In this document: positions 1,905 through 31,884 of the stretch, piece after piece
Layout of the letters: every line of letters starts with the position of its first letter
Numbering within the stretch: the stretch's first letter is position 1
Assembly: GCA_028534125.1 (NCBI GenBank)
Contig: CM052816.1
Coordinates: 1,674,001 to 1,738,000 of the forward strand
DNA length: 64,000 bases
Reading direction: 5' to 3'
DNA from: Lama glama
Lineage: Eukaryota
Translations under genes and position numbers: made by a program
Notes under the pieces: model-generated
What the model was told of the DNA's origin: nothing
The model's database searches: none
What the model saw: the letters and a program-made list of their open reading frames with translations, nothing else

Positions 1905-2120
1905 AGAGCAGGCTTGGAAGGCAGAATAACCTCATTTCTAGTCTTGGCTCATCACTTAGCCCGAGCAAGTTGCTTAGACCTTCTAAGCCTCCATTTTTTT
2001 CATCTGTAAAATGGGACTAATAAGAGTGCGTCCCTCATAAGGTTGTGATGACCATTTTAAAGAATGCACTTAAAGTACTTCGCACAAGCTGGCATTTAGC
2101 AGCTGCTTCATGCAAGTCAT
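1905..2120 (+). mobile_element. MIR SINE
   Basis: MIR core: gagcaagttgcttagaccttctaagcctc..catctgtaaaatgggactaataa..ggttgtgatga. Confidence 0.75.
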
Positions 2121-2384
2121 TGTGTTGGGATGACTTCTCTTACCCCCTCAGCCTTCGCCTTGACTGGAGCCCATACCCAGCCTCTTCTGAGCCTTGGCAC
2201 GCTCCAAACCGCCATGGCAGAAGCTGTGGGTTAAACTGAGAAAGGGGGCAGACACCTTCTACCACAGTAACTCACCAGGGTGTACTGCATGAGCTGTTTG
2301 GACAATAAGAGAGTATATTGTCTAACAGACATTCCACCTTGAAGCTGTTTCAGCAACTTTCCACATCCGCCCCCTCAAATGTCC

Positions 2385-2932
2385 TCCCAACTATCTGTGC
2401 CTTCTGGTATTCACGCCCTGTATAGTCCCTCCAGCGACCTGCTTCCAACCAATAGGAACCGTGGTAAAGGTAATGGAATGTCAAGTGTGCAATCACATTA
2501 CAAAAGCTTGTAACACCATTCTCCCCAAAAAAGACTCCGTCCTGCAGGCTTTGGTGAAGCAAGTGGCTGTGATCAGAAGGCTCATGCAGCAAAGAATTGA
2601 GGACAGCCTTCTTCAAACAACCAGCTAGGACCTGAGGGCAGCTTTCATCTATCGGTCAGCAAGAAACTGTGGCCTTTACTTAGTCCAACAGGCCTGAAGG
2701 AACTGAATTCTGCCAGCAGCTGCATGAGCTTTAAAGCCAGTCTTTCTCTAGTGGAGCCTTGAGACAAGATCACAGTCCCAGCCGACATCTCAGTTTAAGC
2801 CTCGTGGGAGGCAGGCACCCAGTGAAGCCAGGCCTAGACTCCTGACCCACAGAAATGATGAGATAATAAGTGTGTGCTTTTATTAAGTCACTAACTTTGT
2901 GGAAATTTGTTATACAGCAATAGATACCTGAT
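2385..2932 (+). mobile_element. MLT1-type MaLR solo LTR
   Basis: ctgaattctgccagcagctgcatgagctt, gactcctgacccacagaaa..agataataa..taagtcactaactttgtggaaatttgttatacagcaatagata (MLT1 3' end). Confidence 0.85.
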
Positions 2933-4249
2933 CTAGAAATCAAGATAAAGAACAAAGAGAAGGCTGGAGTGAAGAGCAAAGGAGGCGAAAGACCTGGGAA
3001 AGGAATAGGAGAGGACATCCTTTATGCCATCTGAGGAGTCTCCCTCTGTCCTCTTAAGTATGTGCAGTGACCAGACCCACACTCCAGCAGGCCCGCGACT
3101 TTGGGGATCACCCTTGGTAAATACAAGTCCTTCCACCAGATTAACTAGCAAACGTGGTCTCCTTCGGGTACTTCTGATATCTACTCCCTCATGATAATCA
3201 AAAGTGGACTGTAAGTGAGACATACAGTTTCTCCTTCTCCTTCCCTTCAGGTAGGGCCAGCCACAGGCCAGCCTCCTGCCTCCTTTCCTCAGACTGCTTG
3301 GCTTCAGTTCTCCCCAGTGTGGAAAGGGAAGGGAGGACGTGGATGGAAGAGAAGGAGGTAATTTGCTCTTTTGAGGCAAGATTCTTCCTTAGATAGCCCC
3401 ATGTTAGCACTCTCACCATGGATTCTACATCTGGTCCCCGGTGTTCATGTCCCTTTCACCTGCCAGTGGTGGAGAGAGCGGTTACTCCTAACACAACAGC
3501 AACCTCTGTTGCATTTCAGTAACCTCTGGTGGTTAGATACAGGAGGAAGTGAAAGAGCCCTGTTCCTGCAACCTTGTTCCAAGGGGGCTTCTTCAAGCAA
3601 AAGCAAGCCTCAGGTGGAATGCACCAAACACAGAGATGCTTATCAGCACGCAGGCAATCAACCACTCTGTGTCTAAGGAGAGACTCCTCCCCCCTCTGCC
3701 CTCAGGTTACGTGGCAAGCCCCTTGCAGGAGCAACTCCTTCAGAAACAGATGCCCTTAAAGCATAATCAGAGGCCTCGTCACCAGACCAGGTAGGGGCTC
3801 ATCCCCGGGAGAATGCAGGCCAAGGGGCTCCAGAACTCCCATCTCCGGGATCGACAGCTGAACAATGCTCATTTCTTCCACCTTATTCACACACAGGTTG
3901 TGGGTCTTGCTACCCTAGTCCTAACCGAACTTTAACACAACTCGTTTCACCAATAAAAAAGCTATTTCTAACATTCCTTATGCTAATGAACGAACCCAAA
4001 GGCAATCATTCAGATAAGGACTCTTCATATACTAATTAACCACTCACTCCTAGAGTGTTGATCAGTATTAACTTGCACACATACACATCACGGCACTTAC
4101 ACTGAAGTATTTTAAAGTAAATTACCACGCACAATCTAGCACTTACTGAATCCTGATTTTGTTTGGGTTGCCGAGTGCACAGCCGTGAGAGATGAATCAT
4201 GACTGTCTGCTAATTCAGCCATGACAAACTCAGCCTCTCTCTGCCAGAT

Positions 4250-22895: not shown

Positions 22896-23344
22896 TTGCA
22901 GGAGATTGTTCGGTGTTCTCCTTCTAAGGGTTCCTCAGGACACCCATCTCCCAGCCTGGTCAAAGGGAAGAAGCACAAAGCCGGGAGCCAGAACACTTTG
23001 ACTCAATCCTGGCCCCACCATTAAACAGCTCTATGACCTTGGGCAGGTCATTTTATCTTCCTGAGCCTCAGGGTCCTCATCTGTAACATGAGGAGGTTGG
23101 AACTGTGGGCTATTTATTAAGGCAAAGCATACCCTAAGAACAGGCATTCCACGCAAGGGTTAGCTTGTCTTTATGTGTCTCTCAGGGACCAAGGACTTGA
23201 GAGCCAAGGAGGTGAGTAGATACTGAATATCCCTTTGGTTTGTTTCAGAATCAAGATTCAAGTTCATGTTCTGGGAATGGCATTATTAACCTCTACTTAT
23301 GAACAGAATGGTCAATAAAGAAGTGTTGATTAGAGTTATAAAAT

Positions 23345-23700
23345 AAATTATGTCCTCCACACCTCCCACCCCTCCACCAAATTCACATGAAGCCCAAACC
23401 CCAGTGTGATGTCCTGGAAACAGGGCCTTTATGGGAGTAATTAATCTAAAGTGATGGGGTTGATGTCCTTATAAGAAAAGGAGAACTTCTCTCTCCATGC
23501 TTGTGCCCAGGAAAGGCCATGTGAGGACACAGAAAGAAGGTGGCTGTCTGTAAGTCAGGAAGAGAGACCTCACAGAAACCAATCACGGTGGCACCTGGCT
23601 CTTGGAATTACAGCCTCCAAAAATGTGAGAAGATAGATTTCTGTTGTTGAAGCCACCTAGTCTGTGGCATTTTGTTACGGCAGTTAGAGCGGACTAATAA
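23345..23700 (+). mobile_element. MLT1B-type LTR
   Basis: aaggccatgtgaggacacag..aaggtggctgtctgtaagtcagg..ttctgttgttgaagccacctagtctgtggcattttgttacggcag. Confidence 0.85.
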
Positions 23701-24221
23701 AGTTAGATTCCAGGCTTGGTGACTTTGTAAGGGATAACAATGATACAGTCCTTGGCTCAAAGGGCTTTTCCTGTAGATGAGGATTAGGAAGGAGCAGAGG
23801 CAGACACTGAGGAGTGCTGTGGTTTACCCCCAGTCTTGTTCACTTTCATCTCAACTTTCTTTTGCCTATGAGTTGATGAACCTGGTGGTTGTTTTTGTGA
23901 CAAACAGGGGGAAAAAATGGGCCCTGAAGTCAAGAGGTCTGCACTCCAATCTCAGCTCCATAGTATTATACAAATGAAATCTATCTTGGGGTTTGGGGTT
24001 CATTAGATCTGAGGTCAAAAACCTGTTCTACCTTTAGCTATATGACCTTGGACAAATTACCCAACCCTTCTGATGAATAGTTGCTTTTAACTATAAAATG
24101 AGAGTAACATCAGTAACTTACCAGGTCACTGTGAAGATTAAACGCAATGGAGCATATAAAGAACTTAGCTCATGGTAGGTAAGGCTATACAATTTAACAA
24201 ATCCAGTTCATGAGAAGTAGG

Positions 24222-24339
24222 TTGCGTTCCTTATCTTTTGCTATGGAACAAGTTACCCTAAAACTTAGTGGCTTAATACAACATTTTAAAACGTTTTCTA
24301 AACTGTCATAGCTTCCTGCCTCTGATTCTCAGATTTCTT
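24222..24339 (-). mobile_element. MLT1 LTR, left part (host of the 4.07-kb insertion)
   Basis: tttgctatggaacaagttaccctaaaacttagtggcttaatacaac; reads on into 28424 (..ttctcagatttctt|acaaggctacaac..) once the insert is removed. Confidence 0.8.
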
Positions 24340-25010
24340 TTTTTTTTAATTTATCAAGTTTTTTTATTATGGGTATTGGTATAGCAGAATATAAAAATTA
24401 AATGATAAACATTTCTTCAAAGAGTACAATTTAACTTCATCTTAAAAAACGTTTATTTTTTAAAAACTATACATACTCAGGTAGAAAGAGGCTCTTTGAC
24501 TTAAACTTATGACTTCAGAATTAAACTCTAGAAATAAATGCTATGGCCATCTAAAAGTTTATATTGACAAATTGCATACATTTTCAAATTATAATGTAAT
24601 TTTTGTACACAGAATAACTATATATACACTTCACTTACATTGCTGATATATAACAACATATAAACTGTCTTGAGAAGTGAGGCTTAATTAATGTAGATTC
24701 AAACTAAGCAGAAGATCAGTCTCAATTACTACATTTCTTTCTCAACTAATAAGAGATAATCCAAACATTTGCGGAATATATAAAAAGTCCCATGCTTCAA
24801 GGTGTTGTTCTGGGAATTCCAACGTATTTTATATAAGAGATGCTGACCACGAAGGAGCTCACTGCTGTGCTCACCGGTAAAGTTGGAGGAACTCTGGTCC
24901 AAAGGAAGGGACTGCCCTCCATCCACTGGCCTCAGTGCAAATCAGGTGGTGATCTGACTAAGTGACTGAATGCAGCCTGGCAGCTTCAGAGGGGAGGGAA
25001 CAGCACAGCT

Positions 25011-25643
25011 TTAACATGAGGGCCCACTCCTGGGAAAGGGGCCATCAGGATTTGGTGCTTGGTCCCCTGGCTGGTTTGTAAAAGCCTCTTGTGATGTGCT
25101 GATTCTCGTGACCTCCTCCAGGAACTGGAGCACCTTTAGCATCTCTGCCATCTCTTCTCGTATAGACTGCAGGGGTCCCTCTCTCTTCAGTTCTTGGACG
25201 AGAAAACTGATTTCCTTCCTTGAACTCAGGTTGCCCATCATCAACTTTCTGTAGGTGTCAGCGAGGCTGGGTATGTTTACTGGCTCCTTCTCTAGCCTGG
25301 TGTCCTTTAGAGCTGTCTCCATCCTGGCACACTCCTGTTTAGCCACATAAAGCTTGTCGATGAGGTGGCACTTCTCTTCGATCTTTTCAGCCAGTGTTTT
25401 TGCCAGTTGCTTTTCATGTCTTCCATTAAGTTAACTTCTAACAGACTGAATAATAAGTCTACAAGTAAATAACATGCCCACCAAAAAGGTGAGGACAGGC
25501 AGACTCAACACTGTCTCCCAGTGGGGGCTCTGGAACATGAGCTGAGAACACAGGCCATTGGGCAGCCACAAAACCAGGACCACACTCAGCTTCCTAAGGA
25601 TCAGCCCAAGGCCAAGCTCCACGGAGGACAGCAGCCCCTCCAT
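25011..25643 (-). pseudogene. CTAGE5: Intronless cTAGE5/MIA2-like retro(pseudo)gene: 210 codons with one in-frame TAA (25431-25433); TM helix plus partial coiled coil; large internal deletion
   Basis: ORFs 25431..25751 and 25011..25346 share a frame. MEGLL..LGLIL..WETV..QSVRS*L..EKQLA..IEEK..LKD..EKE..ELK..MAE..SQ parallels remembered cTAGE5 MEEPG..LGLLL..WELV..RSVRSRL..EKKLA..IEEK..LKD..EKE..ELK..MAD..SQ. Kozak GCCATGG at 25643. Confidence 0.85.
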
Positions 25644-26139
25644 GGCACTGACCCACCCAGGGCTCCGCCCAGTTACCATGGAGCCACCAGCCACAACAAG
25701 CACCAGGGGACACCCCCAACATTCCACCTGGAACCCAGCCAGCATTGACATCTTGGATTGGTCAGTTATCTGGTCAGTGTTGGCAGGGAGGAGGCATGGC
25801 TGTCAGAGGACAAGGTTGTAACTAAAATGTCATTTTCTCCATTATTGCCTCATGGTAATTTTTTCTTCTTATCTCTTTCTTTTTGTGTTTATATCTGTAT
25901 ACAATAAAACTATAGTGAAATGTGTCAACGTAAAGTTTATGATTTCACAAACCTTTCAAATTCCTAACCCTCGACAGTATTGGAAAAGTCAGTGGATGAA
26001 CCATATGTTTGAATCACATCCACTAACACAGAATATATACCCTTTGTCACATTTCAGTTGAAATACACACACTCTTATGACATGCAGCCATCAGTCTGAT
26101 GGTGGCCAAACTTAATAAAAATGAAAAAAAATCACAATG

Positions 26140-26580
26140 TATACTTTAATGTCTGTCTCTTTTGCTCTAAGTAATGTTTTTAGAGCTACATGTTTTTATT
26201 TGAACATGCCATTCATTCTGTTTGTAGGGCTGAATAATTTGACCCTGTAAGATTATATCACAAAATATTAATCCATTCTCTTAATAATGGGCATTTGGGT
26301 TAGTTCAAGTGTGGGTTATTATGAATAAATACTTTTGTATATATATGCATGCATCTTTTTTCTAAATATCTGTTTTCATTTACCCTGTCAGGCAAATACC
26401 TGGGAGCAGCTCTGTTGGGTAGATGTGTGCTAAATACCTCATTTTGAAACATTTCTTGAGGTATAATTTACATGCCACAAACTCACTCATTTAAATACAG
26501 AATTCTTTGGTTTGTGTGTGTGTAAGTGTGCAGAGCTGTGTCTACCTCACAATCCCAGTTTAGAACAATTCTATCACAGG
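26140..26580 (-). mobile_element. Ancient L1M fragments inside the insertion cargo
   Basis: atccattctc..gggcatttgggttagttcaag..attatgaataa; ttcttgaggtataatttacatgccacaaactcactcattt. Confidence 0.65.
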
Positions 26581-26589
26581 AAAAAAAGA

Positions 26590-26830
26590 TTTCTCAGTCC
26601 ACACTTTTCTTTATCAGCTTCATTTGACACAGTCAGTCTTTCTTTCTCTTTGAAATGCTTCCATGATATAGATTCCACTTCAATACATTTCCCATTTTTA
26701 TAATTGTCTTTGTTCTTGGTTTCTGTTTTTTTATGAACTCACTGGCCTTTCCTTCTGTGACTCCGCGGATGGTTTGTACTTTTCTTCCAAACCCTTTAGC
26801 ATTAGTTTGACTCAGGAATTACTTCTTCCT
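26590..26830 (+). mobile_element. L2 fragment inside the cargo
   Basis: tcagcttcatttgacacagtcagtc..ctctttgaaatgctt..tcactggcctttccttctgtgactcc. Confidence 0.5.
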
Positions 26831-26834
26831 TTTT

Positions 26835-27160
26835 TTCTCCCATAGTTTATATTAGGGTTTACTCTTGATGTTGTATATTCTATGGGTTTTGACAAGTGCA
26901 TAATGACATGTAGTCACTATTATAGTATCATACAGAATAATTTCACTGCCCTAAAAATCCCTTGTGCTCCATCTACTCATTCCTCCCCCACTTTCTCTCC
27001 CCTGGAAAGCACAATCTTTTTATTGTTTCTGTAGCTGTGCCTTTTCCAGAATGTCGTTTGGCTGGAATCGTACAGTTTGTAGCCTTTTCAGACTGGTTTC
27101 TTTCATTTAATAATATGTCTTTTAAGTTTCTTCTACATCTTTCATGGCTTGATAGATTTT
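26835..27160 (-). mobile_element. L1MC-like 3' UTR fragment inside the cargo
   Basis: catagtttatattagggtttactcttgatgttgtatattctatgggttttgacaagtgcataatgacatg..tttcactgccctaaaaatcc. Confidence 0.8.
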
Positions 27161-27289
27161 TGGGGTTTTTTTTACTGCGTATGTATCTTTTAATTTACAT
27201 GTATGTACTGTCCATTGTTTCAAAGAGTGTTTAGAGATTTAGCTTTTTAAACTTACATAGTTATCAAAGGAATAAAGCCAACCACAAAA

Positions 27290-27407
27290 TAAGAATTAAC
27301 TCAAAAAGATATATACACCCTGCTATGAACAGCAACATTATTTATAATTGCCAAGATACGGAAACATCCTAAGTGCACATCAATATTTTAACAGAGAATG
27401 GAGATGC

Positions 27408-27439
<32 letters not shown>

Positions 27440-27850
27440 CATGTGTGTGTGTGTGTGTGTGTAATGGAATATATGTAAGTCACCATAAAAAAGGATATTT
27501 TGCCACTTGGAGACCTTCATTCACTTTTTTTTTTCACTTCAAAAACCAGAATTTTATAACTGGCAGAGACATTTCCATTACATCGAAAACAACAAAATAT
27601 CTAGAAATAAACTTAACCAAGGAGGTACCCATACTTTGAAAACCGAAATGACAAAGAAATGGAAAGATTGCTTGTGCTCTTGTATTGGAAGAATCAACAC
27701 TATCGAAATGGCCACACTACCCAAAGCAATCCACAGATACAACGCAACCCCCGTCAAAATACTCAAGACATTCCTCACAGATCTAGAACAAACAATTCCA
27801 CAATTTATAAGGAACCACAAAAGTCCCCAAACAGCCAAAGTAATATTTTG
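27290..27850 (+). mobile_element. L1 fragments (ORF2 end/3' region with (TG)n at 27410-27462, then ORF2 piece ~27565-27850)
   Basis: Translations KYLEINLTKEV and KWKDCLCSCIGRINTIEMATLPKAIHRYNATPVKI. Confidence 0.85.
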
Positions 27851-28409
27851 TAGGTCTCTTTTTCCCCCTCTTTCTTCTTTTTGTTCTCTTTTCTTATGGT
27901 TTGATGACTAGAGGAGGTCCTTTAACATTTGTTGTAAAGCTGGTTTGGTGGTGCTGAAATCTTTTAGCTTTTGTTTATCTGTGAAGCTTTTGATTTCTCC
28001 ATCAAGTCTGAACGAGAGCCTTGCTGGATAGAGTATTATTGGTTGTAAGTTTCCCCCTTGCATCACTTTAAATGTATCATGCCACTCCCTTCTGGCCTGT
28101 AGAGTTTCTGCTGAGAAATCAGCTGATAACCTTATGGGAGTACCGTTGTATGTTATTCATTGCTTTTCTCTTGCTATTTTTAATATTTTCTCCTTATCCT
28201 TAATTGATGTCAATTTGATGACTGTGTGCCTTTGTGTTTTCCTCTTTGGGTTGATTCTGTGTGGTACTCTCTGTGCTTCCAGGACTTGGGTGACTGTTTC
28301 CTTTCCCAAGTTGGGGAAGTTTTAGGTTATTATCTCTCCAAAAATTTTCTCAGGTCCTTTCTCTTTCTTTTCTCTTTTTGGGACCCCTATAATGTGAATA
28401 TCAGAGCAC
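27851..28409 (-). mobile_element. L1 ORF1 C-terminal half plus start of the inter-ORF spacer; 5' end of the insertion
   Basis: Minus-strand translation: IHIIGVP..EAQRVPHRINPKR..TPIRLSADFSAETLQARREWHDTFKV..YPARLSF..FSTTKPALQQMLKDLL*. Confidence 0.9.
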
Positions 28410-28830
28410 TTCTCAGATTTCTTACAAGGCTACAACTAACATGTTGTAGCCAGGCCTGCAGTCTCATCTGAAGCTTGACTGGGGAGGAGTCTGCTCACTC
28501 AGGGATTGGTTCCTTGCTGTATAAAAGGCCACATTTCCTTGCTGGCTCTATCATTTTGCTTGCCATGTTGGCGTTGCCATAAGGCAGCTCATACCATGGT
28601 ATCTGGCTTCCCACAGAGCAAACAAGTGAGTGAAAGAGAGTGTCCAAGATGGAAGCCATAGTCTTTTGGTAATTGAATCTTGAAAGTGACACCTTATTAC
28701 CTTAAGCCACACTCTATTTATTAGAAATCCATCACTAGATCTAGGACATTCTCAGGGTAGGGGATTACCAAGGGCTTGAAGGCCAGGAGGTGGAAATCAC
28801 TGGGGGTTATCTTAGAGGCTGTGAATCCCA
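28410..28830 (-). mobile_element. MLT1 LTR, right part
   Basis: acaaggctacaac..gcctgcagtctcatctgaagcttgactgggga..ccaagatggaagccatagtctttt..ggccaggaggtggaaatcactggggg. Confidence 0.85.
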
Positions 28831-28879
28831 GCAGTGTGAAGTGTGAAGAAGAGCAGAAAGATGCTCTGGAATAAGATTA

Positions 28880-29147
28880 CAGCCAACTGACAGATTCCAT
28901 ATTTTTTAATTTGCCTGCTCGCTAAAATGTATTTGTTACTCCACAATGAATACTCATGACTCTTTTGCGGTCATTTGCAGACATGCACAAAGCAGTGAAC
29001 AATTTGAGTCACCCAACACAGACATTTAAAGCTGCTGTGGGACCTAACCCTGTACTTCCCCTAAATGCAACAGTTCGGTATTCACTAAGTTCACTGTTCA
29101 TGGAGACTTTATAGAACTTAACTACCATGAATAACAAGAATCAGTTG
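28880..29147. mobile_element. Tigger4/MER46-like TcMar MITE
   Basis: ctcgctaaaatgtatttgttactcc..gcggtcatttgcagacatgcac..ttatagaacttaactaccatgaataacaagaatcagttg|ta. Confidence 0.7.
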
Positions 29148-31884
29148 TACTTTGGTTGGACATCCAACTCCACCACTTGCCCACCTGTGCTGTCCTGGGC
29201 CAGCTTTTTAACCTCTCTGTGTTTTATTTGCATTAAGAGTAAAATGGGAATGACAACAGGACATACAACCGAGGGCTTTGGGGAGGATGAACTGTAATGT
29301 TCCTGGCACAGTGGACAGCACACAGCAAGTGCTTCACAAATAGGAGACATTATAATTACCACTGTCTGTGCTCAGTTTCACCTGAATTATACCGAATTTT
29401 TTTGAGACTTCCTTTCTTATATTCTGGGACAGTGCTGGGCACAGAGTAGGCACTCATAAACTACTTATTGAATGAAATAAAGATTCTCTGACTCCATCAG
29501 GCAGAAGATCTAGAGCTGGAGGAGATGAGGACTTCTGTGTCTGGTCTCTGGGTCTGATGTCATAATTGTGGCTGGTAGGGATGGGAGTGTGTAAAGAATT
29601 ATAAAAACTCTCACACCAGAACCCACATCAAGACACTAAATCCATAGTATCGACAGACTGTTGACTCACTTCCCCCAGGAACTGAGAGAATGCCCAGCAG
29701 ATGGAAATGTACCCAAGACACAGCAGCCGTGGTATTTTCCCCACGTTACCAGGCGTGAGGCCAGAAGTGGATCTAGCCGTGGTACACAGTGGGATCAATC
29801 ATCTGTAAATAAGTCGCCTACGTAGTTTCAGAGACGATTTTTCATCTCTAAATGCCGAGTCATCGCCTTAGGAGCTGAGATGTAAAATCTCTATGGCCTC
29901 TGGGTTTTGGATCTGACCTTGATTTTGCAGTTTGTTCTGCAAGCCAAGGGCCCTGTCTTCCTCCAAAAGGGAGAGCATTTGGAAGCTCTCCAATACAGAT
30001 GGCTTGGGAGGGGGTCCAGGTGGATTTCAAGGACTACCACCACTAGCCCTCTCTTGGGAAGGCAGAAGTTATTTGGAAGGGTTATTATGATCACAGCTGA
30101 AGGGAGGTGGGCACTACATCCTGTTTTTTGAGGGCATCCTGAGGAAGCTGTGTGACTCGGGTCCAATTAATCTCTCTGAGACTTGGTTGCCCTCATAGGT
30201 GAAACAGCAGTGGTAAACAGTGCCTATTTTGTAAAGCCTATGCAGACTGACCTACATGAAGGAGAAAGCAACTTAAATTTATTCCCAGGGGAGTCATATC
30301 ACTACCTACCTCTTCTTCTCAGGGTTTAATAATAAGTGCAAAAAATAGCTAACTTTTACTGAGCATCTGTGTCCCAGGGACTATCCTCTCCTCCCCAGAT
30401 CCCATGATTATTCTCATTGTTGCAGGTGCTGGAACTGAGGCACAGGGACGTGAAGTAACTTGTCCAAGGTCACACAGCTAATAAGTGGCAGAGCTTACCC
30501 TCAGGTCATCTTGCATCTCCCCTAAAAGATATCTGTATTTTAACCAGGTAACATTTTAACCTAGATACAGATAGAAATTTTAGGTGGTGCATCTAGCTGG
30601 TGAGAAAGACAGGTCCTGCGCTGCACTTTATCCATGAGTACCTTACCTGTTAGAGAGCTGACCAGGGATTGGAAAATTAACCTCACTTATCATTTCTCCC
30701 TTCTCAGACATCCTTCTTCAGTCTTAAATAAGGACTGTGATTAATCTGATATGTTAAGAGATTTAGGGCCTCAGAGTTCAGGGAGCTGAGGTATGAAGGG
30801 CAACAGGCCCCTCAAACTCCACAGACATCATCACTCCTGATTTATTTTTTAATAAAGTATCATTTATCCTGCACCTATTCAGTGCCAGGGACTAGACTCA
30901 GTACCTCACAGCCTTCATTGCTACCCCTCACAAAAACTCATGAGCTGGTTACTTAAAGTCCCATTTTACAGATGAGAAAGTGAAGTCAGAAGAGTCATGT
31001 GGCTTCTCAAGACAGACAAGTAGTAATAGATGGATCTGGGGTTCTTGTCCAGGGCTACCTAGCAAAGCCAGACCTCCCACTTCACTACCCTGGGAACCCA
31101 GAAAGCTTTCTTGATGCTACAAACCTGATCCTTGTGCTCAAAGGTTTCATTAGTCCAGCTGCTACTGGGTGGCAGCTGAAATTGCTAGGCTGGATAGAGG
31201 CTGTTGAACTTGGCAGGAGATGGATATGCCACATAAAACAAAAGCCTCTCTGGAGACAGAGAGGAGATGTGGCCCGGAACACCAGCTAACATGTATTAGG
31301 AGTATAACGTGACTCAGGTTGTAAGGTAACTTTTATCACAACAAGGAGAGGTGGAATAGGAGAGGCTCACAGGTCAGGATGCCCTTGGATGTCAGCCCCA
31401 GTTCTGAAGGATGCTCTTATTCCACCACAGAAAGGTCAACTTATAGACCAGCATCAGAAAAATCCCTCCAAACATGGAAAATTTTTCAAGAAGTAATACC
31501 TTGAGCTGAAAGCATTGGAAATTAAAAAAAAAAGTCATTGGACAGATTCTGACACCCAACTTTGGCAATTTGGTGCCTACTGAACCAAAATTGGCCTCAG
31601 CCACACAGATGGGTGGAAGTATAAATTGAAATGGCATTTCTGGAGGGCAAATTAGTAATATAGATCAAAGAGCTTTAAAATGTGCATAAGCTTTTTATCC
31701 AACCAGTCTGCTTATAGGATTGTATCCTAAGGAAATAATCAGACATATGCAAAAATGAGGTTATCACAACATTATTTTTTAAAGAAAAATAATGCAAGTA
31801 ATCTACATGTCCAATAATAGGGATGGGTTATATTCACCCACTGTGGTTAAACTAAGCAGGTGCTAGTTTAAAACTCAGGCCTTT

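What the first reader, a model, noticed from the sequence alone, without database searches (positions are those of the whole stretch)
24326..28423. A 4.07-kb single retro-insertion that moved a whole gene plus ~2 kb of its upstream genomic DNA
Seen: the identical 14-mer TTCTCAGATTTCTT flanks 24340-28409, and removing the insert rejoins an MLT1 LTR. The left end is poly(A) on the minus strand with AATAAA ~15 nt upstream, and the TSD reads AAGAAATC.. on that strand, resembling an L1 endonuclease site. Cargo 5'->3': L1 ORF1 piece, inverted L1 pieces, ancient L1MC/L2/L1M relics, unique DNA, cTAGE5-like ORF, 3' UTR, poly(A). Established: TSD + poly(A) are hallmarks of target-primed reverse transcription, and L1 can transduce 3' flanks. 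Inference: an L1-initiated read-through RNA (or an RT template switch) used the gene's own poly(A) signal, so the gene was duplicated together with its upstream region, unlike an ordinary processed pseudogene. The perfect TSD suggests a fairly young event, and a source locus might have produced more copies.
Basis: partly seen in the sequence, partly recalled or inferred. Interest (0 to 1): 0.85.

Follow-up and report, generated by a model that had tools for sequence, protein, structure and literature searches.

The report
Truncated copy of gene-carrying L1-derived retrotransposon
The 4.07-kb insert is real, but it is one old, shortened copy of a repeated 5.4-kb element in which half of an L1 retrotransposon carries a small cTAGE5/MIA2-like host gene and has spread it to many places in this genome.

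Summary
An exact 14-mer flanks 24340-28409, and the minus strand ends in AATAAA plus an A8 tail.

The insert is not a one-off copy of a gene locus. At least 9 other genomic places match the whole 4.07 kb at 84-87%, and the flanks do not match. Most of these copies run about 1.3 kb further into L1 ORF1 and 5' UTR. Each has its own target-site duplication.

The family ("A", about 5.4 kb) has two parts:
- an ORF2-less, rearranged L1 that also exists alone as an abundant ~3.1 kb family "B";
- 2.5 kb of host DNA holding a 209-codon cTAGE5/MIA2-like ORF and its poly(A) signal.

Gene loci without L1 and without an A tail also exist ("G"). One A copy later passed 640 nt of its own flank to three further copies, which shows read-through 3' transduction in this lineage.

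The window copy is 5'-truncated in ORF1, has one premature stop, and differs 6.9% from the family majority. It is therefore old.

The read-through idea is broadly right. The claim that the gene locus was the direct source, and "young", are not. Whether the first A element arose by read-through or by template switching is open.

The parts
24326..24339 (.). Left copy of the target-site duplication (on the element strand AAGAAATCTGAGAA, directly after the A tail).
   Evidence: exact 14-mer, only two copies in the window, 0 of 100 shuffles reach 2.
24340..24347 (-). Poly(A) tail of the insert (T8 on the + strand).
   Evidence: Other copies carry T7-T10 at the same point. G-type gene loci have no tail there.
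24348..25010 (-). 3' UTR of the carried gene, with AATAAA at 24368-24363.
   Evidence: Colinear with the other copies and with G-type loci up to the cleavage site.
25011..25643 (-). cTAGE5/MIA2-like ORF: 209 codons plus stop, no frameshift, one premature in-frame stop at 25433-25431 (codon 71).
   Evidence: Homologues named 'cTAGE family member 9'. The profile hits MIA2 short-isoform residues 12-194.
25644..26279 (-). Host DNA upstream of the ORF (the upper part of segment Y).
   Evidence: Colinear in A copies and in the G-type locus L040. L041 and L042 have a different L1 junction at its upper edge.
26280..26821 (-). Segment X: further upstream host DNA with old repeat relics, present in A and G but not in L041 or L042.
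26822..26840 (-). A-rich tract at the joint between the L1-derived part and the host DNA.
   Evidence: 23 rows (13 distinct A places; ten appear under two locus ids) have A10-14, sometimes with G, after ...AAACTATG. G has other sequence at this point.
26841..27234 (-). L1 3'-end segment in sense, cut about 210 nt before the normal L1 end. The upper bound is approximate.
   Evidence: In B copies (L045, L046) the same segment runs on into a ~210-nt tail plus poly(A). That tail has 1910 first-look candidates and 40 of 40 scored hits.
27235..27849 (+). ORF2-derived pieces lying antisense to the element, including (TG)n at about 27411-27462.
   Evidence: for 27648-27848 (ORF2p residues 796-860). 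The remainder is assigned by recall only: searches gave no hit for 27489-27911 or 27235-27372.
27850..28409 (-). L1 inter-ORF spacer and the C-terminal 168 codons of ORF1 (2 stops). The 5' truncation point of this copy is at 28409-28412.
   Evidence: Other copies continue 378 to ~1345 nt further.
28410..28423 (.). Right copy of the target-site duplication.
   Evidence: The first 3 nt also match the element in other copies.

Best explanation
Window 24340-28409 is one 5'-truncated, dead copy of an old, multi-copy, non-autonomous retrotransposon family, here called A (about 5.4 kb).

On the minus strand, a full-length A element consists of:
1. an L1 5' UTR;
2. L1 ORF1;
3. two antisense scraps of ORF2;
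4. an L1 3'-end segment cut about 210 nt short;
5. an A-rich tract;
6. 2.5 kb of host DNA that carries a complete 209-codon cTAGE5/MIA2-like gene with its own AATAAA.

Shown:
- The L1-derived half also exists alone, with a normal L1 tail, as an abundant ~3.1 kb family (B).
- The host half exists alone, as gene loci without L1 and without an A tail (G).

Inferred:
- A arose when a B-type RNA became joined to the G gene region.
- The resulting unit kept the L1 promoter and ORF1 and used the gene's poly(A) signal.
- It was copied many times by L1 ORF2 protein supplied in trans.

The copy in the window was made from such an A transcript. Reverse transcription stopped inside ORF1.
For: Family membership:
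- 48 matches to the insert; 9 other places cover all 4.07 kb at 84-87%.
- Homology stops at 24330-24348 on one side and at 28404-28412 on the other, with unrelated left flanks.
- The right flanks of 5 copies share a further ~1270-1345 nt. L006 shares about 912 nt and L005 about 378 nt. This is graded 5' truncation.

Own target-site duplications:
- Found in 7 of the 9 loci L002-L010. L009 is cut by its contig end and none was found in L010.
- Among 11 shorter copies, 4 score 10 or more. Mismatched-pair controls had mean 6.1, and 1.8% reached 10. L017 and L018 add two more.
- 11 of the 12 duplications read start A-rich on the element strand, as expected for L1 endonuclease sites.

L1 identity:
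- ORF1 Pfam domains: Transposase_22 at 3e-23, Tnp_22_dsRBD at 2e-24, Tnp_22_trimer; also the window's own piece.
- An antisense ORF2p match.

Related forms:
- B: L045 and L046 match element positions 7/14-2856 at 87%, then carry a ~210-nt tail plus poly(A). A probe across the ORF1/antisense-ORF2 joint gave 40 of 40 scored hits spanning it, from 1842 candidates.
- G: L040 matches from position 2856 to the cleavage site, has unrelated DNA upstream and no A tail. It shares its downstream flank with L038 and L039.

Proof of read-through in this lineage:
- The full-length copy L002 shares 640 nt of its 3' flank (92-93%) with L017, L018 and L026.
- In those three copies the shared stretch ends in A7-10. 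In L017 and L018 the copy's own duplication follows; in L026 none was looked for.
- L002's flank simply continues.

Age: the window copy differs 6.9% from the majority state; the family range is 4.9-8.8%.
Against: - No locus was found in which the L1-derived part sits between G-type flanks. 38 of 38 upstream-flank candidates and 26 of 26 downstream-flank candidates were scored. The four places holding both flanks have them 2.4-2.65 kb apart, never 5.4 kb. The read-through origin of A is therefore not demonstrated.
- The L1 3' end in A is truncated, with no canonical AATAAA just upstream. Plain 3' transduction does not predict this.
- ORF1 is broken in 9 of 9 copies examined, so cis-acting ORF1p cannot be shown.
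- Copy numbers are bounds only. The genome tool scores at most 40 candidates per search.
- Presence of this insertion in other species was not tested.
Confidence: 0.85

Rival explanations
1. The first A element was a chimeric retrocopy made by reverse-transcriptase template switching. ORF2p copied a G-gene transcript to its 5' end (the start of X), then jumped onto the A tail of a prematurely polyadenylated B-type RNA and copied that. No L1 ever sat next to the gene. This rivals only the origin step, not the family reading.
For: - The joint has an A10-14 tract directly after a truncated L1 3' end.
- No locus with L1 between G flanks was found.
- The related pair L041/L042 shows a chain of same-sense pieces: an SR-rich retrocopy ending in AATAAA plus A10, then a 5'-truncated L1 3' end plus A10, then Y. 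That is the look of multi-part chimeras (recalled from the work of Buzdin and colleagues; not read here).
Against: - Read-through transduction is directly seen in this lineage.
- It is unknown whether the start of X is the gene's transcription start.
- The G array is poorly assembled, so a master locus could be missing.
Confidence: 0.35
2. One reading: a unique, fairly young retro-insertion made directly from the gene's own locus by an L1-initiated read-through RNA.
For: - The duplication, A tail and AATAAA are present.
- The perfect 14-mer might suggest youth.
Against: - There are many copies with different flanks and different duplications.
- The copy ends inside ORF1 of a longer unit.
- It differs 6.9% from the majority state, like its siblings.
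- At about 6.5% decay, 28 unchanged bases are expected in roughly 15% of copies, so the perfect match is not evidence of youth. This is my arithmetic.
Confidence: 0.03
3. The copies arose by DNA-level segmental duplication, not through RNA.
For: Some related loci do share flanks: L038, L039 and L040, and L041/L042.
Against: - A copies have unrelated flanks, A tails, individual duplications and graded 5' truncation.
- The window's flanks have no other match.
Confidence: 0.01
4. The carried ORF is more than a passenger. Either it was kept open by selection in the active lineage, or several copies serve as working genes, so the element acted as a vehicle for a gene-family expansion.
For: - The ORF is open in 12 of 33 aligned copies, including 8 of 26 A copies.
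- Indels run at 1.8 per kb per copy in the ORF against 7-11 in the flanking parts.
- Pairwise dN/dS is 0.55.
- Camelus records annotate proteins from such loci.
Against: - Diversity is almost flat across codon positions: 0.117, 0.114, 0.134.
- NG86 is biased by transitions and CpG sites.
- Using the ORF's own indel rate and the simulated stop rate, about 4 of 26 open copies are expected against 8 seen (my arithmetic).
- The flanking parts are AT-rich and indel-prone.
- No expression data were obtained.
Confidence: 0.15

Closest known systems
L1 3' transduction (read-through of the L1 poly(A) signal, carrying downstream DNA to a new site). Seen as passages in PMC9917352 and PMC4859970; the primary papers are recalled.
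   Same: An L1-derived 5' part in sense, an A tract, then colinear host DNA ending at a downstream AATAAA plus tail, flanked by a duplication. A second round of transduction is seen directly.
   Different: - The driver lacks ORF2 and its 3' end is cut short.
- The transduced unit itself became a family of dozens to perhaps about 200 copies, not one or a few offspring.
- The source locus was not found.
SVA-mediated duplication of the AMAC1 gene (Xing et al. 2006, seen only as a cited passage in PMC9917352).
   Same: A whole intronless host gene is copied to new sites as 3' cargo of a non-autonomous, L1-mobilised element.
   Different: - The carrier here is half an L1, not SVA.
- The copy number is far higher than I recall for AMAC1; the passage read says only that multiple transductions on different chromosomes made the family.
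- This is a camelid-type genome, not a primate one.
HAL1, 'half-L1' (Bao and Jurka 2010). Seen only as a citation and one sentence in PMC4859970; the paper itself is not held.
   Same: An L1 5' UTR plus ORF1 without ORF2, multi-copy, with tails and duplications (family B and the 5' half of A).
   Different: - B keeps antisense ORF2 scraps and a normal L1 tail.
- A adds a host gene.
- ORF1 is broken in all 9 copies read.
- Any relation to the catalogued HAL1 lineages was not testable here.
SVA and LAVA composite retrotransposons (passage in PMC4859970).
   Same: A mosaic of unrelated modules that became a new L1-dependent family. Most long copies share one 5' end.
   Different: There is no hexamer, VNTR or SINE-R module. 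It contains protein-coding modules.
Primate CTAGE family expansion by retroposition followed by DNA duplication (passage in PMC4949931).
   Same: A cTAGE5/MIA2-derived gene multiplied through an RNA step.
   Different: - A different lineage.
- A short ~210-residue form.
- The copies carry an L1 half and upstream genomic DNA, so they are not plain processed retrogenes.

Membership tests
L1-mediated (target-primed) retro-insertion | Target-site duplication flanking the insert | tested here: met
   for the window. 7 of 9 other long copies. 6 of 11 shorter copies.
L1-mediated (target-primed) retro-insertion | Poly(A) tail preceded by a poly(A) signal at one end only | tested here: met
   A8, with AATAAA 15 nt upstream. 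Tails are present in the other copies and absent in the G locus.
L1-mediated (target-primed) retro-insertion | Variable 5' truncation among copies that share one 3' end | tested here: met
   5' ends fall at element positions ~1, ~430, ~950 and ~1290 (the window), and at 2968-3914.
L1-mediated (target-primed) retro-insertion | Endonuclease-type target (TT|AAAA-like) | tested here: inconclusive
   The window site reads TTGT|AAGAAA. 11 of 12 duplications start A-rich (read). No statistical test was made.
L1 3' transduction | Transduced DNA is colinear with a genomic locus that lacks the L1 and the tail | tested here: met
   L040, L039 and L038.
L1 3' transduction | Complete L1 3' end and A tract between the L1 and the cargo | tested here: not met
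   An A tract is present, but the L1 end is cut about 210 nt short. By contrast, L041 and L042 have the complete tail plus A10 before Y.
L1 3' transduction | Source locus with the element next to the cargo | tested here: not met
   none among 38 and 26 flank matches. For the second-round 640-nt cargo, the source-type locus L002 was found.
HAL1-like (ORF1-only L1 derivative) | L1 5' UTR and ORF1 present, ORF2 absent | tested here: met
   (ORF1 domains). (only an antisense ORF2 scrap). Element lengths are 5.3-5.4 kb for A and ~3.1 kb for B.
HAL1-like (ORF1-only L1 derivative) | Open ORF1 in at least some copies | tested here: not met
   0 of 9 copies; the longest run is 244 residues in L004.
HAL1-like (ORF1-only L1 derivative) | Sequence relation to catalogued HAL1 families (Repbase/Dfam) | not testable with these tools
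Processed pseudogene of an mRNA | The copy starts at the gene's transcription start and holds only mature mRNA | tested here: not met
   The copy begins in L1 ORF1 and holds 1.2 kb of upstream genomic DNA.
cTAGE/MIA2 protein family (the carried ORF) | Homology to the transmembrane and first coiled-coil region of MIA2/cTAGE5 | tested here: met
   The profile search hits a record named MIA2 isoform X4 (806 aa) at residues 12-194, long MIA2, and MIA3. NCBI names for ~210-aa homologues are 'cTAGE family member 9'.
cTAGE/MIA2 protein family (the carried ORF) | Full-length architecture (about 800 residues with the later coiled coils and proline-rich end) | tested here: not met
   The ORF is 209 codons, and its homologues are 199-211 aa. 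A single-sequence search among longer proteins found none.
MLT1 LTR as the target | Both flanks belong to one copy of one repeat | tested here: inconclusive
   1 of 5 related copies matches both flanks in order. The family name was not tested.

The most novel reading that the evidence does not exclude
This would be a camelid-type 'gene-carrying half-L1'. An ORF2-less L1 picked up a complete cTAGE5/MIA2-like gene. The ORF was kept open in the active lineage, and some of the roughly 200 copies are still expressed. On this reading an L1 derivative served as the vehicle for a protein-coding gene-family expansion, and may even have depended on its second ORF.
Probability: 0.15. Interest if true: 0.75.

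Novelty: new variant of a known kind. Interest (0 to 1): 0.45.

Why it matters
L1 3' transduction and half-L1 elements are both known. A unit that combines them, carries a whole host ORF and reaches dozens to perhaps about 200 copies is less common. Here the gene-only form (G), the L1-only form (B) and the fused form (A) are all still visible in one genome. One source-to-offspring link is marked by a second transduced flank.

This gives:
- a natural case for asking how new composite retrotransposons are born (read-through or template switching);
- a test of whether ORF1 in cis is enough for efficient trans-mobilisation;
- a measure of how far such elements seed new genes.

In practice, gene annotators of camelid genomes will meet many cTAGE-like "genes" that are cargo of this repeat.

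Tried and rejected
- Empty-site test with public reads. The look-up of sequencing runs listed 20 runs, under five organism codes and eight studies, holding 44-53% of the sampled words of window 23340-29409. Nothing was laid, so no conclusion is drawn about other species. The flanks make up only a third of that stretch, so a share above one third hints that part of the insert is present. This is unlaid and is not evidence.\n- Other copies of the flanking repeat inside the window: none.\n- Pfam on the cTAGE-like ORF: only sub-threshold hits.\n- Single-sequence search among longer proteins: none. The profile search was needed.\n- PDB sequence search for 26973-27194(-) and 27235-27372(+): no meaningful hit. 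Calling these pieces L1 rests on colinearity with B copies, and for the second piece on recall.\n- Pfam on the SR-rich ORFs of L041: none.\n- Search for a master locus with G flanks around an A element: not found.\n- Earlier notes of this scan: none by place, sequence or words.\n- Literature searches returned no paper describing a camelid composite or half-L1 family. The searches were HAL1/half-L1/ORF1, camel/alpaca/LINE-1/transduction/retrocopies/cTAGE, and HAL1 with camelid names. PMC8605555 (passages) does not mention one. Repbase and Dfam could not be consulted, so the family may already be catalogued there.\n- The exact start of many hits at query position 2501 looked like a chunking artefact. 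It turned out to be the true L1/host joint at 26840-26841.

Full report
**1. The observation**

The 14-mer TTCTCAGATTTCTT occurs exactly twice in the window, at 24326-24339 and 28410-28423. With up to 1 mismatch the chance expectation is 0.13 matches, and 0 of 100 shuffles gave two. Directly inside the left copy lie eight T (24340-24347), which is an A8 tail on the minus strand. AATAAA on that strand (24368-24363) sits 15 nt before the tail. On the minus strand the duplication reads AAGAAATCTGAGAA and the pre-insertion site reads TTGT|AAGAAA.

**2. The insert is one of many**

A search of the window's own assembly (2.35 Gb) with the insert gave 48 matches. Nine other places cover essentially all 4,070 nt at 84-87% identity (only 40 of 12,983 first-look candidates are scored, so counts are lower bounds).

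I aligned the window with 1.5 kb of flank on each side against these nine loci:
- Homology starts at 24330-24348 and ends at 28404-28412. L010 is shorter.
- The flanks on the tail side share nothing.
- On the other side, five loci share a further ~1270-1345 nt with each other. L006 shares about 912 nt and L005 about 378 nt. L009 is cut by its contig end.

The unit is thus about 5.3-5.4 kb long. The window copy is 5'-truncated, and the truncation points are graded, as in LINE-type retrotransposition.

Seven of the nine loci show their own, different duplications of 10-16 nt at the ends of homology. None was found in L010, and L009 cannot be judged. Among 11 shorter copies from a second search, 4 score 10 or more in a duplication scan. 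Mismatched pairs in that scan had mean 6.1, and 1.8% reached 10. Two more (L017, L018) have duplications once their true 3' ends are recognised. Eleven of the twelve duplications I read begin A-rich on the element strand.

**3. What the unit is made of**

L1-derived half:
- The shared 5' extension and the right end of the window insert encode L1 ORF1. Hits are Transposase_22 at E 3e-23, Tnp_22_dsRBD at 2e-24 and Tnp_22_trimer.
- The window's own remnant hits Tnp_22_dsRBD at 1e-16. It reads 168 codons with two stops up to the truncation point.
- Window 27648-27848 on the plus strand matches human L1 ORF2p residues 796-860 at E 3e-16. It therefore lies antisense within the element.

Carried ORF:
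- The ORF at 25643-25011 (minus strand) has 209 codons, no frameshift and one premature stop at codon 71.
- Its homologues are ~200-210-residue proteins. These include NCBI records named "cTAGE family member 9" (fox) and "cTAGE family member 9-like" (otter), and unnamed Camelus proteins.
- A profile of 17 such proteins hits 266 representatives. Among them are a record named MIA2 isoform X4 (806 aa, residues 12-194), long MIA2 forms, and MIA3.
- "cTAGE5-like" therefore holds for the N-terminal ~190 residues. The protein is a short form, not a full cTAGE5.

**4. Three related forms in the genome**

*B.* Loci L045 and L046 match element positions 7/14-2856 at 87%. They then continue for ~210 nt into a tail ending in poly(A), making an element of about 3.1 kb. 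That tail is highly repeated: 1,910 first-look candidates and 40 of 40 scored hits. Two of those hits abut B-type matches. A 181-nt probe across the ORF1/antisense-ORF2 joint gave 40 of 40 scored hits spanning the joint, from 1,842 candidates. B is therefore an abundant, ORF2-less, rearranged L1 of the half-L1 kind.

*G.* Locus L040 matches the element only from position 2856 to the cleavage site. It has 555 nt of unrelated DNA upstream and no A tail. It shares its downstream flank with L038 (90.7%) and L039 (96.6%). Probes for the G flanks hit 38 and 26 places, nearly all on small unplaced contigs at 88-97%. There is also an old paralogue on contig C25 at about 70%. A Camelus dromedarius protein record is closest to the G-type ORFs (84-86%) and further from A copies (72%). 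G is the ordinary gene locus, present as a poorly assembled multi-copy array.

*A.* This is the family of the window copy, and it equals the B part up to ...AAACTATG, then an A10-14 tract, then the G region. The G region splits into X (window 26280-26821) and Y (24348-26279). The many hits that start exactly at query position 2501 are B or A copies, because position 2501 is the true L1/host joint.

*A fourth form.* L041 and L042 have a 5'-truncated L1 3' end with a complete tail and A10 directly before Y, lacking X. They share at least 1.44 kb of upstream flank, which encodes SR-rich ORFs and ends in AATAAA plus A10. They are therefore two copies of one composite, not independent events.

**5. 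Read-through is seen directly**

The full-length copy L002 has its own duplication immediately after its A tail. It also shares ~640 nt of downstream flank, at 92-93%, with L017, L018 and L026. In those three copies the shared stretch ends at ...GAGTTGCTA followed by A7-10, about 26 nt after an AATAAA. In L017 and L018 the copy's own duplication follows. L002's flank simply continues.

An A element at that locus, or a lost twin of it, was therefore transcribed past its own poly(A) site. The longer RNA was inserted at least three times.

**6. How A arose (inferred)**

There are two routes:
- A prematurely polyadenylated B-type RNA inserted just upstream of X in a G paralogue, and L1-promoter transcripts then ran on to the gene's poly(A) signal. 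This is 3' transduction.
- Reverse transcriptase copying a G transcript switched at its 5' end onto the tail of such a B RNA.

The A tract at the joint fits both routes. For the first: read-through is documented in this lineage, and the G sequence at the joint (ATC|AAGACC) is an acceptable nick site. For the second: no locus with the element between G flanks was found, and the L041/L042 chain looks like a multi-part chimera. I put them at roughly 45% and 35%, with the rest for DNA-level rearrangement.

Premature polyadenylation of L1 and the idea that 3'-truncated ORF1-containing RNAs give half-L1 insertions are stated in PMC4859970 (passages read).

**7. Age and state**

- Over the 3' 1.5 kb, 26 A copies differ pairwise by 11.1% on average (range 3.9-14.7%).
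- The window copy differs 6.9% from the majority state (6.4% outside CpG). The family mean is 6.5% and the range 4.9-8.8%. Its nearest relative is 10% away.
- With commonly quoted mammalian neutral rates (recalled, not computed here), this means tens of millions of years.
- A perfect 14+14 nt is expected in about 15% of copies at that decay (my arithmetic), so it does not indicate youth.
- ORF1 is broken in 9 of 9 copies read.
- The carried ORF is open in 12 of 33 aligned copies, 8 of them among the 26 A copies.
- Indels are 4-6 times rarer in the ORF than beside it, and pairwise dN/dS is 0.55.
- Against this, diversity is nearly flat over codon positions, at 0.117/0.114/0.134. About 4 of 26 open copies are expected from the ORF's own rates. 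I leave selection on the ORF as an open minority reading.

**8. Comparison with what is known**

The closest known things are:
- L1 3' transduction;
- SVA-mediated duplication of AMAC1 (passage in PMC9917352);
- half-L1 elements (citation in PMC4859970; the original paper is not held);
- SVA-type composites;
- the primate CTAGE expansion by retroposition (passage in PMC4949931).

This case works like a transduction lineage driven by a half-L1. It fails two strict criteria for plain 3' transduction: the L1 3' end is incomplete, and the source locus was not found. No open ORF1 could be shown.

Three literature searches and passages of a Camelus transposon survey (PMC8605555) gave no description of such a family. 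Repeat libraries could not be consulted.

**9. What could not be done**

Copy numbers are bounds: at least 40 confirmed for the 3' 1.5 kb, 513 first-look candidates for that probe, and 266 for a 221-nt ORF probe.

**Verdict**

The window feature itself is an ordinary dead copy. The family behind it is a moderately interesting new variant of known mechanisms.

Noticed in passing
L002 (G000:C26, locus 1-1500, rc) with L017, L018, L026: About 640 nt of L002's 3' flank recurs after the A-element tail in three other copies. There it ends in A7-10, and in L017 and L018 the copy's own duplication follows. This is a second-round 3' transduction that marks the C26 locus (or a lost twin) as a source element.
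   Followed up: yes
L041:1-3096 and L042 (rc) 2054-3480: Upstream of the L1-3'-end/Y unit lies a shared stretch of at least 1.44 kb (88.6% identity). It has long SR-rich reading frames and ends in AATAAA plus A10. It looks like a retrocopy of an RS-repeat protein mRNA chained to the L1 piece. There was no Pfam hit, and L042 lacks about 1.8 kb that is present in L041.
   Followed up: partly
G000 unplaced contigs (for example C88810, C140105, C113886, C956360, C626478) and C25:2730741-2734171: The L1-free gene locus (G) occurs in many copies at 88-97% identity, on small unplaced contigs. This suggests a collapsed or poorly assembled array. An old paralogue at about 70% identity sits on contig C25.
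   Followed up: partly
L021 (G000:C4:67276355-67277839): A 5'-truncated copy with a 20-nt duplication (1 mismatch) but no A tail at its 3' end.
   Followed up: no
L023 (G000:C36:58096539-): A copy with an internal deletion of element positions ~2264-3381. The deletion removes the L1/host joint and X.
   Followed up: no
window 27411-27462: A (TG)n microsatellite inside the L1-derived part, next to the antisense ORF2 scraps. It was not checked whether it is present at the same place in other copies of the family.
   Followed up: no
L014/L015, L034/L035, L016/L020, L039/L040: These pairs of copies are only 3.5-5.5% apart, much closer than the family mean of 11%. They may be later DNA duplications, haplotigs or a young subfamily.
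   Followed up: no
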